The notes under the pieces are model-generated. The model made no database searches, had not been told where the DNA came from, and worked only from the letters and a program-made list of their open reading frames with translations. From Ostreococcus lucimarinus (taxonomy: Eukaryota), in assembly GCA_000092065.1 (NCBI GenBank), contig CP000586.1: a stretch of 64,000 nucleotides of DNA; one strand, 5' to 3'. The position numbers and the translations under genes are program-made. Positions 19,099-20,490 of this stretch are shown one piece after another (position 1 is the first letter of the stretch; the number at the start of each line of letters is the position of its first letter).

Positions 19099-20490
19099 TC
19101 ACGCATCGAAACCGTTGGTCCATATTTCGGCTTTGACTTGTTCCTTGCAAGCCTTTGCGAGAGCTTTAATGAACTTGGCGTGCAACTTGTGGCCAGCTTT
19201 GTAAGCGATGACGTGCCCGACCGGAACGCCGCTCATCCCGGGCTCGGCGAGCAGAGACAAATCACCAATCAAATCGAGAATCTTATGACGCGCCGGCTCG
19301 TTATTCACACGAAGAGGTGCGTTCCAGTACTGATCCCCGTTTGCGATGAGAGCACAATCTTCTAGACCTGCTCTAATATAGCCAGCGCGGTAGTACGCAG
19401 TGAAATCGTTCATAGTCCCAAACATTCTGGCCGGCGAGACGTGGAAAACATAAGGCGCGTCCTCAGTCGGCGTCCAGCTTTCCCACTGTTTACCGATGGC
19501 GGTAGTTTTGTACGAGAGATCGATACCGTACGTGAGCTTACTCACGTCGTCGACGTTGAACATCATAAAAGCGTCGCCTTCTTGCACCATGACGTTTTCA
19601 GTGATTTTCCAAGCCATACGCGGAACTTCGCCACCATCCACGGCGCGAGCCGGAGTGAGTCCCACGCAGCAAATATCGTACGCGTACGAAGATGCGCTCC
19701 CGTCCATAATGGGAACCTCGCCAGTGCCCTCAAGTTCGATGCGGCAGTTGTCGATTCCCATCGCCTCGAGCGCGCTCAACAAGTGTTCAGCCCCACGGAC
19801 TACGAAATCACCATTTAACTCCGAGCTCAAGCGCACATCTTCGTTTGCTAGCTCATAGCTCGCTCGCACTCGCGTTTCGTTCGCGTCGTATGATCCAGCG
19901 GCTTCGATCTCCGCCGCCAACGCCGTCCTCGCATTCGCCGCCAGCTCTCGCGTCTTTTCCTTTTCCTCCTCGTTGTTACTCAAAGCCATCCGCACGCGTT
20001 CGAGCAACATATCTTCAGCCTCCTCATCGCTGTAATCGATCGTATCCCGTAGCTCCTCATCGCTCGCGTTGATCGTACCGCTCGGCACCTTCACAAAGTA
20101 TCGCCCCTCTCCCGCCTTCGCCGGGCGCACTCGCATCAGCTCAACCTCACCGCTTCGCAACCCTGTGCCGGCGTACGTCACGCTTCTTCTAATCGTTTGT
20201 TGATATTCAGCGTTCGCGGGCACGCGCACGTTGAGTTCAGCCGCCGCCAACGCCGCGCTACGAACTTCGTCCCGGGACTGGAAATTCACGTACCCCTCGG
20301 TACCGCTCGACGACCCCGTCGCCTGCGCGCTCGCCCGAACGACGCGTCCGATGCGCTGCTGCGCGCCTTCACGCGCGCATCGCTGCCCCGCGGCGCTCAC
20401 CGAGGCGGTTCCCGCGCGCGCGCGGCGCGGCGTTCGCGCGGCCGAGGCGGCGGCGGCGCCCGTTCGCGCGGGCGTCAGCGTCGCGCGCAT
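19099..20490 (-). CDS. LPXC: UDP-3-O-acyl-N-acetylglucosamine deacetylase (LpxC) homolog with organellar presequence
   Basis: Collinear with E. coli LpxC ([16 protein letters not shown].., [36 protein letters not shown], C-terminal [22 protein letters not shown]). The track start 20634 is TTG. The first ATG is at 20490 ([27 protein letters not shown], transit-peptide-like). Confidence 0.85.
   Translation of the reverse strand: [463 protein letters not shown]

What the first reader, a model, noticed from the sequence alone, without database searches (positions are those of the whole stretch)
19099..20490. LpxC (lipid A deacetylase) homolog encoded in a eukaryotic nucleus with a transit peptide
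The product is unmistakably LpxC-like ([31 protein letters not shown]; C-terminal [12 protein letters not shown]). It carries an Arg/Ala-rich presequence and sits among ordinary eukaryotic genes. Land plants are known to keep a mitochondrial lipid A-like pathway. Its presence in a tiny green alga implies the rest of the Lpx pathway should exist elsewhere and that a lipid A-like molecule is made in an organelle.
Basis: partly seen in the sequence, partly recalled or inferred. Interest (0 to 1): 0.55.

Follow-up and report, generated by a model that had tools for sequence, protein, structure and literature searches.

The report
Orphan LpxC-like gene in a picoalga
A tiny marine green alga carries an intact nuclear copy of the bacterial lipid A enzyme LpxC, but it belongs to a green-algal branch of that family whose Chlamydomonas member is a structural part of the chloroplast RNA polymerase, so it probably does not signal a hidden lipid A pathway.

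Summary
Window 19099-20490 (minus strand) is an intact single-exon gene for a 463-aa protein. It has a 68-residue disordered Arg/Ala-rich N-terminus and a confident LpxC fold (Pfam E 7e-62; AF2 pLDDT 83; TM 0.83-0.92 to bacterial LpxC). It lies among eukaryotic nuclear genes.

- The protein falls in a chlorophyte-only clade (NJ bootstrap 150/150). All members carry a ~65-residue acidic helical insertion that bacteria, land plants and Chlorokybus lack.
- The Chlamydomonas member (Cre16.g653350, 36% identical, E 7e-70) is PEPS6, a dimeric scaffold subunit of the plastid-encoded RNA polymerase (2026 preprint).
- Core-chlorophyte members have repeatedly lost catalytic residues.
- A published pathway reconstruction finds the lipid A pathway absent from O. 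tauri and M. pusilla.

The window protein keeps the Zn ligands and the acid/base residues (E235, H236, H402, K403, D406, D410, H434). It has fixed changes at the oxyanion Thr (Met356) and at the His19 equivalent (Arg112), and polar changes in the acyl tunnel.

Most likely it is an orphan LpxC kept for a plastid, non-lipid-A role. Its residual activity is unknown. It is a new member of a known kind, of modest interest.

The parts
19099..20490 (-). Complete CDS of the LpxC-like protein: 463 aa plus TGA, single exon.
   Evidence: ORF listing and translation. The same 463-aa gene call appears on 4 metagenome contigs. Pfam LpxC E 7.1e-62.
20305..20490 (-). Presequence (residues 1-62): Arg/Ala/Ser/Thr-rich, almost no acidic residues, very GC-rich coding DNA.
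   Evidence: pLDDT below 50 for residues 1-68. Composition. Only 16-34% identity to the closest relatives. No bacterial counterpart.
20209..20304 (-). Pre-domain block (residues 63-94, [11 protein letters not shown]...VPANAEY). It is conserved in Mamiellophyceae and includes predicted helix 73-86.
   Evidence: Alignments A1 and A3. 53-62% identity within the Ostreococcus-type clade. Helix in the model at low confidence.
20083..20208 (-). First part of LpxC domain I (residues 95-136), ending in [10 protein letters not shown]. It contains Arg112 (codon 20155-20157) at the position of E. coli His19.
   Evidence: PDB alignment of query 96-134 to P. aeruginosa LpxC 5-43. H19 is R, K or Q across the whole Ostreococcus-type clade.
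19876..20082 (-). Chlorophyte-specific acidic insertion (residues 137-205, net charge -13), predicted as helices 143-149, 155-170 and 174-193. Core motif: [19 protein letters not shown].
   Evidence: The segment between E. coli residues 42 and 58 is 81 aa here, against 12-16 aa in bacteria and land plants and 18 in Chlorokybus. An insertion is present in all chlorophyte homologues, including Cr PEPS6. Model pLDDT 62-91. 57-67% identity within the clade.
19153..19875 (-). Remainder of the LpxC fold (residues 206-446), with these sites:
- E235/H236 (codons 19783-19788)
- Met356 at the Thr191 position (19423-19425)
- H402/K403 (19282-19287)
- D406 (19273-19275)
- D410 (19261-19263)
- H434 (19189-19191)
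   Evidence: Alignment to E. coli LpxC numbering. Residue roles from the review. Met356 is present in 15 of 15 members of the window's 90% cluster.
19099..19152 (-). Short C-terminal tail (residues 447-463) and the stop codon. It lacks the long acidic tail of the Chlamydomonas and Volvox proteins.
   Evidence: Alignment A3.

Best explanation
The gene encodes an organelle-targeted, most likely plastid-targeted, protein with a complete LpxC fold. It is the prasinophyte orthologue of a chlorophyte-specific branch of the LpxC family. The Chlamydomonas member of that branch, PEPS6, is a homodimeric structural subunit of the plastid-encoded RNA polymerase.

Shown here:
- Orthology: a shared clade and a shared insertion at the same site.
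- An intact Zn-ligand set and acid/base pair.
- Lineage-fixed replacement of the oxyanion Thr by Met and of His19 by Arg.
- More polar residues in the acyl tunnel.
- Repeated loss of catalytic residues in other members of the clade.

From the literature:
- The lipid A pathway is scored absent in O. tauri and M. pusilla.
- PEPS6 sits on the SI3 head of the beta'' subunit.

Inferred: in this alga the protein is an 'orphan' LpxC. It is kept because of a non-lipid-A role, most plausibly as a scaffold associated with the plastid RNA polymerase or nucleoid. Its metal site survives, and its deacetylase capacity is probably weakened, vestigial or redirected.
For: - The chlorophyte clade, which includes the window type and Cr PEPS6, has NJ bootstrap 150/150 on 264 columns that exclude the insertion.
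- BLASTP of the window protein against CHLRE_16g653350 gives 36% identity, E 7e-70. PEPS6 is Cre16.g653350, annotated '1 of 1' LpxC.
- The insertion is found in every chlorophyte homologue. It is absent from bacteria, cyanobacteria, land plants and Chlorokybus.
- Catalytic residues were lost many times in this clade while the protein was retained. Cr PEPS6 has H79A, T191S and K239Q. Volvox has H79S, T191G, H238R and K239Q. Dunaliella, Monoraphidium, Auxenochlorella and Nannochloris have lost more. This requires a second, non-catalytic function.
- PEPS6 is a dimer on the SI3 head of the Chlamydomonas polymerase and anchors PEPS9.
- The lipid A pathway is reported absent in O. tauri and M. pusilla.
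- Retention of the 38 enzyme-invariant positions runs 37-38 in Pyramimonas, 34-36 in Micromonas, 32 in the window and 30 in Cr PEPS6.
- Met356 is fixed in 15 of 15 cluster members and in 6 of 6 members of a sister lineage.
- The window also encodes a sigma-70 factor, so the alga has a plastid polymerase to serve.
Against: - Association with the polymerase has been shown only in Chlamydomonas. The preprint itself warns that sequence conservation does not guarantee incorporation, citing PEPS8.
- PEPS6 docks on a massively expanded SI3 head. Expansion or fragmentation of rpoB and rpoC2 is reported for core chlorophytes. It is unknown, and perhaps unlikely, for the compact Mamiellophyceae plastomes.
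- All Zn ligands and catalytic residues (E78, H79, H238, K239, D242, D246, H265) are invariant across Ostreococcus-, Micromonas- and Bathycoccus-type sequences. This argues that catalysis, or at least metal binding, is still under selection.
- The second half of the core-chlorophyte insertion (the F-G-x-F..Y motif) is missing from the window protein.
- The pathway-absence result comes from EC-based scoring of related species, not from this genome.
- Plastid and mitochondrial targeting could not be told apart.
Confidence: 0.5

Rival explanations
1. One reading: a working LpxC deacetylase that performs the committed step of an organellar lipid A-like (lipid X) pathway, as reported for Arabidopsis mitochondria.
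For: - The Zn ligands, general base and acid, and the UDP-pocket residues D160, K239, K262 and H265 are all present.
- The fold is confidently LpxC.
- These residues are invariant across Mamiellophyceae-type sequences.
- Arabidopsis homologues act in a mitochondrial pathway that yields lipid X (Li et al. 2011, as cited).
- Cymbomonas, a prasinophyte, is reported to have the pathway.
Against: - The pathway is scored absent in O. tauri and M. pusilla (0.08 against 0.67).
- There is no Lpx partner gene in the window.
- The protein is in the PEPS6 clade, not the streptophyte clade.
- Thr191 is Met and His19 is Arg, both fixed.
- The acyl-tunnel positions Phe212 and Phe194 are Glu and Thr. L206 is Tyr and G209 is Ala.
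- The protein is below the NCBIfam equivalog cut-off (180.7 against 187.25).
Confidence: 0.2
2. An active zinc deacetylase that has changed substrate (some other N-acetylated sugar or lipid in the organelle) and has nothing to do with the RNA polymerase in this lineage.
For: - The catalytic core is retained although the pathway is reported lost.
- The changes concentrate in the substrate-contacting tunnel and pocket (F212E, F194T, L206Y, G209A, T191M, H19R) rather than in the metal site.
Against: - No candidate substrate or partner gene was found.
- The same tunnel changes occur in clade members that have lost the metal ligands. They therefore do not mark a new activity.
- This reading does not explain why pseudo-enzyme orthologues are retained.
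Confidence: 0.15
3. A decaying gene, or a bacterial contaminant or recent transfer, with no function in the alga.
For: There are substitutions at two otherwise invariant catalytic-pocket positions. The closest bacterial relatives are cyanobacteria.
Against: - The ORF is intact, with 79-87% core identity to sister lineages and a conserved insertion.
- The same allele family occurs in many independent samples with the same eukaryotic neighbours.
- Homologues are found throughout the green lineage.
- The eukaryote-type presequence rules out contamination.
Confidence: 0.03

Closest known systems
Chlamydomonas reinhardtii PEPS6 (Cre16.g653350), subunit of the 2-MDa plastid-encoded RNA polymerase (bioRxiv 10.64898/2026.06.23.732312)
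   Same: - Same chlorophyte clade (bootstrap 150/150).
- 36% identity, E 7e-70.
- An insertion at the same site after GEGRYFV.VP.GT.
- Nuclear gene with an N-terminal presequence.
- Polar residue at the Phe212 tunnel position.

   Different: - PEPS6 has lost His79 (Ala), Thr191 (Ser) and Lys239 (Gln). The window protein keeps His79 and Lys239.
- PEPS6 has a longer insertion, extra loops and a long acidic C-terminal tail (609 aa against 463 aa).
- Polymerase binding is demonstrated only for PEPS6.
Bacterial LpxC (E. coli, P. aeruginosa, A. aeolicus; PF03331 / TIGR00325)
   Same: - Two-domain LpxC fold (TM 0.83-0.92).
- Zn ligands H79, H238 and D242.
- E78, H265 and D246.
- K239, K262 and D160.

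   Different: - About 30% identity.
- A 94-residue N-terminal extension and a ~65-residue insertion in domain I.
- Thr191 to Met and His19 to Arg, plus Phe212 to Glu and Phe194 to Thr.
- Below the TIGR00325 equivalog cut-off.
- No neighbouring or known partner Lpx genes.
Land-plant LpxC1-5 (annotated 'mitochondrial'; Arabidopsis lipid X pathway, Li et al. 2011)
   Same: Nuclear, organelle-targeted LpxC homologues of the green lineage with about 40% identity. They share the 5-residue 'GxxGxP' loop that bacteria lack.
   Different: - Land-plant proteins lack the insertion (12-16 residues at that site).
- They keep Thr191 and His19.
- They form a separate streptophyte group.
- They work alongside LpxA, D, B, K and KdtA.

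Pyramimonas/Cymbomonas-type prasinophyte LpxC
   Same: The same insertion-bearing clade. The insertion motif EE.E[DE]...L.....L is shared.
   Different: These keep 37-38 of 38 enzyme-invariant positions. Cymbomonas is reported to have the lipid A and KDO pathways. The window protein keeps 32 of 38, and the pathway is reported absent in Mamiellophyceae.

Membership tests
[quoted passage not shown] | Sequence match to the family profile above the curated threshold | tested here: met
   Pfam PF03331 scores 209.8 bits against a cut-off of 27. The stricter NCBIfam equivalog TIGR00325 is narrowly missed, at 180.7 against 187.25.
[quoted passage not shown] | Two-domain LpxC fold | tested here: met
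   AF2 mean pLDDT 83.3, pTM 0.80. The Foldseek top 50 are all LpxC, with E about 1e-25 and TM 0.83-0.92 to the target.
[quoted passage not shown] | Zn ligands His79, His238 and Asp242 (E. coli numbering) | tested here: met
   H236, H402 and D406 align. Residue roles.
[quoted passage not shown] | General base/acid pair Glu78 and His265, with Asp246 and Lys239 | tested here: met
   E235, H434, D410 and K403 are present. The role assignment rests on Hernick 2005 and Clayton 2013 (my own knowledge; both are cited).
[quoted passage not shown] | Oxyanion/ligand-contacting Thr191 and the conserved His19 | tested here: not met
   Met356 and Arg112. Both positions are at least 90% invariant in 92 reference sequences, mostly bacterial, cyanobacterial and streptophyte. 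Both changes are fixed in the lineage.
[quoted passage not shown] | Hydrophobic acyl-chain tunnel (Met195, Ile198, Phe212, Val217) and hexose pocket (Phe161, Phe194) | tested here: inconclusive
   M195 and V217 (as Ile) are kept. I198 is Phe, F212 is Glu, F194 is Thr and F161 is Leu. This is judged from alignment only, with no ligand modelling.
[quoted passage not shown] | Pathway context: LpxA upstream and LpxD, B, K and KdtA downstream in the same genome | not testable with these tools
   Only 64 kb of the genome is available, and no Lpx gene is in it. The literature scores the pathway absent in O. tauri and M. pusilla.
[quoted passage not shown] | Deacetylase activity | not testable with these tools
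   Needs an enzyme assay or complementation of an E. coli lpxC mutant.
PEPS6-type chlorophyte LpxC-like protein (plastid RNA polymerase subunit) | Orthology to Cre16.g653350 | tested here: met
   BLASTP E 7e-70. Chlorophyte clade 150/150. The gene is single-copy ('1 of 1') in Chlamydomonas.
PEPS6-type chlorophyte LpxC-like protein (plastid RNA polymerase subunit) | Domain-I insertion shared by the clade | tested here: met
   81 aa against 12-16 aa at E. coli positions 42-58. It is present in all chlorophyte homologues. Only the first helix motif is shared with core chlorophytes.
PEPS6-type chlorophyte LpxC-like protein (plastid RNA polymerase subunit) | Plastid localisation | not testable with these tools
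   A presequence is present, but no targeting predictor or experiment was available.
PEPS6-type chlorophyte LpxC-like protein (plastid RNA polymerase subunit) | Physical incorporation into the polymerase (dimer on the beta'' SI3 head, anchoring PEPS9) | not testable with these tools
   The cryo-EM entry 28RF is not in the PDB copy. The plastid rpoC2 of this alga was not available.
Land-plant mitochondrial LpxC | Groups with streptophyte sequences and lacks the domain-I insertion | tested here: not met
   The protein falls in the chlorophyte clade, not the streptophyte group, and it carries the insertion.

The most novel reading that the evidence does not exclude
The window protein is an evolutionary intermediate caught between enzyme and scaffold. 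It would be an orphan LpxC that is already part of the plastid transcription machinery yet still binds zinc and still turns over, or at least senses, a small molecule. Plastid transcription in prasinophytes would then carry a live metabolite-binding module. This would also give a direct test of the constructive-neutral-evolution model proposed for the Chlamydomonas polymerase.
Probability: 0.15. Interest if true: 0.7.

Novelty: new member of a known kind. Interest (0 to 1): 0.35.

Why it matters
A naive reading of this gene ('LpxC, therefore a lipid A-like molecule is made') would spread a wrong metabolic annotation through picoalgal genomes. The comparative picture is more useful.

One gene family appears to show a graded series:
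- Probably working enzyme: Pyramimonas and Cymbomonas, where the pathway is present and 37-38 of 38 invariant sites are kept.
- Orphan with an intact metal site: Micromonas, then the Ostreococcus type with Thr191 to Met and His19 to Arg.
- Clear pseudo-enzyme scaffold: Chlamydomonas PEPS6, Volvox and Dunaliella.

If the prasinophyte proteins also sit on the plastid RNA polymerase, recruitment preceded loss of catalysis. The family would then be a clean natural experiment on how metabolic enzymes become structural parts of organellar machines. If they do not, the orphan's retained active site points to an unknown substrate.

Tried and rejected
- Li et al. 2011 (PNAS) and Clayton et al. 2013 (JBC) could not be read. 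Their content is cited second-hand or marked as my own knowledge.
- The AFDB50 fold library was unavailable. UniProt names for Ostreococcus orthologues were therefore not obtained, and the species is given only as 'Ostreococcus-type Mamiellophyceae'.
- The exhaustive representative search added diversity but no names.
- Several unnamed representatives that I first treated as bacteria turned out to be eukaryotic. This broke the first two NJ trees. They were identified by nearest neighbour and removed. The same few sequences sit in the reference set, which only makes the 90% invariance criterion stricter.
- A mafft --auto run timed out and was repeated with faster settings. As a result, the insertion lengths differ between because the boundaries were placed differently.
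- I searched the preprint's proteomics supplements for other Lpx enzymes and found nothing. The files are truncated and list only detected proteins, so this is uninformative.
- Literature searches for Lpx genes in Ostreococcus mostly returned bacterial papers.
- I ran no further search on LpxA. Only the best 120 hits are listed, and any plant or bacterial query would have filled the list with land plants or bacteria.
- I first took P0001 to be identical to the window protein. It differs at G63D and V316M.
- Intron, frameshift and contamination readings were considered and rejected.
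Full report
**1. The observation**

The minus strand of window 19099-20490 holds an uninterrupted 463-codon ORF that starts at ATG (20490) and ends at TGA.

- The protein matches Pfam LpxC (PF03331) with E 7.1e-62 and 209.8 bits, in two stretches.
- It falls just below the stricter NCBIfam equivalog TIGR00325, at 180.7 against 187.25 bits.
- Against PDB sequences, the best matches are P. aeruginosa and E. coli LpxC (E 1e-25). Query residues 96-134 align with residues 5-43 of the enzyme, and query residues 213-445 align with residues 57-277. 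About 65 extra residues therefore sit between two neighbouring elements of domain I.
- An AlphaFold2 model built on 71 homologues is confident (mean pLDDT 83.3, pTM 0.80). Residues 1-68 are disordered. The extra segment forms helices 143-149, 155-170 and 174-193.
- Foldseek against the PDB returns only LpxC structures, with TM 0.83-0.92 normalised to the target.

**2. Genomic setting**

The window is a compact eukaryotic nuclear region. It encodes strumpellin, a CCT chaperonin subunit, a Piezo channel, an SMC protein, a formin, a ubiquitin-conjugating enzyme, EMC4 and an F-box/kelch protein. It also encodes organelle-directed proteins: a sigma-70 factor, MnmG, a PPR protein, a ferredoxin-domain protein and a UbiA prenyltransferase. 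No other Lpx gene is present in the 64 kb.

Alleles that differ at 2 of 463 residues (3 of 1392 nucleotides) lie on 11 marine metagenome contigs. All show the same order: DEAD-box helicase, LpxC, 228-aa ORF, PPR. [quoted passage not shown]

The nearest named relatives are Micromonas pusilla (about 51-54% identity), Pyramimonas, Trebouxia, Volvox and then land-plant proteins annotated 'mitochondrial' LpxC. The first named bacteria are cyanobacteria at about 42% identity, against about 30% for E. coli. The organism is therefore an Ostreococcus-type member of the Mamiellophyceae. I could not name the species.

**3. The N-terminus**

Residues 1-55 contain 11 Arg/Lys, 1 acidic residue, 17 Ala and 9 Ser/Thr. 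They are predicted disordered. They have no bacterial counterpart. They evolve much faster than the rest of the protein, with 16-34% identity to sister lineages against 79-87% in the core.

This is what an organellar presequence looks like. No targeting predictor was available, and the composition does not separate plastid from mitochondrion.

**4. Catalytic residues**

In E. coli numbering, the Zn ligands are His79, His238 and Asp242. The UDP and phosphate pocket includes Lys143, Asp160, Phe161, Lys239, Lys262 and His265. The acyl tunnel is lined by Met195, Ile198, Phe212 and Val217 (review). Glu78 and His265 as the acid/base pair, and Thr191 as the oxyanion contact, come from my own knowledge of Hernick 2005 and Clayton 2013 (both cited).

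The window protein keeps E235, H236, H402, K403, D406, D410 and H434. It also keeps D160 and K262. It does not keep two other positions. Thr191 is Met356, and His19 is Arg112.

I defined 38 positions that are at least 90% identical in 92 reference LpxC sequences, mostly bacterial, cyanobacterial and streptophyte. Retention of those positions is:

| Group | Positions kept (of 38) |
|---|---|
| Pyramimonas types | 37-38 |
| Micromonas types | 34-36 |
| Window protein | 32 |
| Chlamydomonas protein | 30 |

The six positions lost in the window protein are H19R, T76G, P149V, T191M, L206Y and G209A.

Met356 is not an error or a rare allele. It occurs in 15 of 15 members of the window's 90% cluster and in 6 of 6 members of a sister lineage. 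A third lineage has Asn, and four have Thr. His19 is Arg, Lys or Gln in the whole Ostreococcus-type clade.

In the tunnel and pocket, Phe212 is Glu and Phe194 is Thr. The same holds for most chlorophytes, whereas streptophytes and cyanobacteria keep hydrophobic residues there.

**5. The family it belongs to**

Every chlorophyte homologue carries an insertion at the same point, directly after the GEGRYFV.VP.GT strand. This covers Ostreococcus-, Micromonas- and Bathycoccus-type sequences, Pyramimonas, Tetraselmis, Trebouxia, Chlorella, Chlamydomonas, Volvox and Dunaliella. Bacteria, cyanobacteria, land plants and the early-branching streptophyte Chlorokybus have only 12-18 residues there.

An NJ tree was built on 264 columns that exclude the insertion. 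Bootstrap support out of 150 replicates was:

| Grouping | Support |
|---|---|
| All chlorophyte sequences, including the window type and the Chlamydomonas protein | 150 |
| Mamiellophyceae-type sequences | 149 |
| Core chlorophytes | 147 |
| Viridiplantae | 79 |
| Viridiplantae plus the cyanobacteria-like group | 104 |

Within the Ostreococcus-type clade the insertion is 57-67% identical. Its first helix has a motif (S/T-D/E-E-E-x-E-D-x-L-L-E-x-x-R-x-x-L) that is recognisable out to Pyramimonas. The second, Phe/Gly-rich part of the core-chlorophyte insertion is missing from the window protein.

**6. What the Chlamydomonas member does**

A June 2026 preprint (bioRxiv 10.64898/2026.06.23.732312) purified the Chlamydomonas plastid-encoded RNA polymerase as a roughly 2-MDa complex and solved it by cryo-EM. 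One of its twelve new nuclear-encoded subunits is PEPS6. It is a homodimer with the LpxC fold that binds the greatly expanded head of the SI3 insertion in the beta'' subunit and anchors the START-domain subunit PEPS9. [quoted passage not shown]

The supplement identifies PEPS6 as Cre16.g653350, the only LpxC gene ('1 of 1') in that genome. I recovered that protein as P0209, CHLRE_16g653350. It is 36% identical to the window protein, E 7e-70. The cryo-EM entry is not yet in the PDB copy, so the interface could not be mapped.

**7. Pattern across the clade**

Catalytic residues have been lost again and again in core chlorophytes while the protein itself was kept:
- Chlamydomonas: H79A, T191S, K239Q.
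- Volvox and Pleodorina: H79S, T191G, H238R, K239Q.
- Edaphochlamys, Dunaliella, Monoraphidium, Auxenochlorella, Nannochloris, Parachlorella, Myrmecia and Apatococcus: further losses.

Keeping a protein after it has lost its active site requires a second function, and in Chlamydomonas that function is known. By contrast, Pyramimonas, Tetraselmis, Trebouxia and the Mamiellophyceae-type sequences keep the catalytic set.

**8. Is there a pathway for it to serve?**

I could not search this genome beyond 64 kb. The Cymbomonas genome paper (Burns et al. 2015, PMC5741210) scored MetaCyc pathways in four green algae. For the 12-enzyme (KDO)2-lipid A superpathway the scores are:

| Species | Score |
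|---|---|
| Cymbomonas | 0.67 |
| C. reinhardtii | 0.17 |
| O. tauri | 0.08 |
| M. pusilla | 0.08 |

The authors state that the pathways 'appear to be absent' from the last three and were lost several times from a scaly ancestor.

This fits my residue counts. The Pyramimonas type, from the same order as Cymbomonas, is fully enzyme-like. The Mamiellophyceae types are slightly eroded, and the Ostreococcus type more so.

The caveat is that the scoring was based on EC annotation and may have missed divergent genes. With one CMP-KDO enzyme scored present, a superpathway score of 0.08 suggests that even LpxC itself may have gone unannotated.

For land plants, six Lpx genes and a mitochondrial pathway to lipid X are reported.

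**9. Most likely explanation**

The gene is the prasinophyte orthologue of the PEPS6-type branch of the LpxC family. It is an orphan LpxC that outlived the lipid A pathway because it has another job, most plausibly in the plastid transcription apparatus.

- Shown: orthology, the shared insertion, the state of each catalytic residue, fixation of Met356 and Arg112, and the absence of partner genes nearby.
- From the literature: the role of PEPS6 and the absence of the pathway in close relatives.
- Inferred: plastid targeting, association with the polymerase in this alga, and a weakened or vestigial deacetylase site.

I put this at 0.5. The main reasons for caution are these:
- The polymerase association is known only in Chlamydomonas.
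- The docking platform there is an expansion that may not exist in Mamiellophyceae plastomes. Reports of expansion and fragmentation concern core chlorophytes.
- The preprint itself notes that a conserved sequence does not guarantee incorporation.
- The complete conservation of metal and acid/base residues across Mamiellophyceae argues that something about the active site is still selected.

**10. Rivals**

- A working LpxC in a lipid A-like pathway: 0.2.
- An active deacetylase with a new substrate, unrelated to the polymerase: 0.15.
- Decay or contamination: 0.03.

The first two are not strictly exclusive of the main reading. A protein that is both enzyme and scaffold is the most interesting possibility left open.

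**11. Novelty and verdict**

LpxC homologues in green algae are already annotated. The preprint included Ostreococcus lucimarinus and Micromonas pusilla in its homologue searches. This is therefore a new member of a known kind.

What this analysis adds:
- The chlorophyte-wide insertion as a marker of the PEPS6-type clade.
- The graded erosion series across the clade.
- The lineage-fixed Thr191 to Met and His19 to Arg changes in the window's clade.

Interest is modest (0.35). The finding corrects a tempting mis-annotation and points to a tractable test of how an enzyme becomes a scaffold.

Noticed in passing
window 8651-10930 (-): A nuclear gene for a sigma-70-type factor with regions 1.2, 2, 3 and 4 (a 641-aa gene call on metagenome contigs). 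It is the specificity factor of the plastid-encoded RNA polymerase. It lies only about 8 kb from the PEPS6-type LpxC gene, which is probably coincidence.
   Followed up: partly
window 40537-47652 (-): A single 2372-aa ORF with Piezo cap, anchor and transmembrane-unit domains. This is a mechanosensitive Piezo-type channel homologue in a picoalga.
   Followed up: no
window 18244-18930 (-): A 228-aa ORF directly downstream of LpxC, conserved on all related contigs. It has only a sub-threshold AP2-domain match (E 0.061). It may be a divergent AP2/ERF-like DNA-binding protein.
   Followed up: partly
window 20666-22504 (-): A DEAD-box helicase 175 bp upstream of LpxC on the same strand. IMG product names of Micromonas-type homologues ('deacetylase/ATP-dependent RNA helicase DDX20') suggest that the adjacency is conserved across Mamiellophyceae.
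   Followed up: no
window 1-64000; gene 19099-20490: GC content of 2-kb windows swings between 0.50 and 0.70. Within the LpxC gene, the presequence-coding 5' end is much more GC-rich than the rest.
   Followed up: no
P0271 (ENA metagenome protein, 727 aa): An LpxC-like domain with a degenerate active site, fused to GNAT acetyltransferase and ATP-grasp (RimK) domains. This is another repurposing of the fold.
   Followed up: no
P0006 cluster and P0003 cluster (sister lineages of the window protein): The Thr191 position varies among closely related Ostreococcus-type lineages (Thr, Met, Asn), while the seven other catalytic positions tabulated (E78, H79, H238, K239, D242, D246, H265) are invariant. 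This suggests site-specific relaxation.
   Followed up: partly
window 4775-6853 (-) and 13198-14820 (-): An MnmG/GidA tRNA-modification enzyme and a Methyltransf_28 (NDUFAF7-like) protein. Both are bacterial-type, organelle-directed genes in the same neighbourhood.
   Followed up: no
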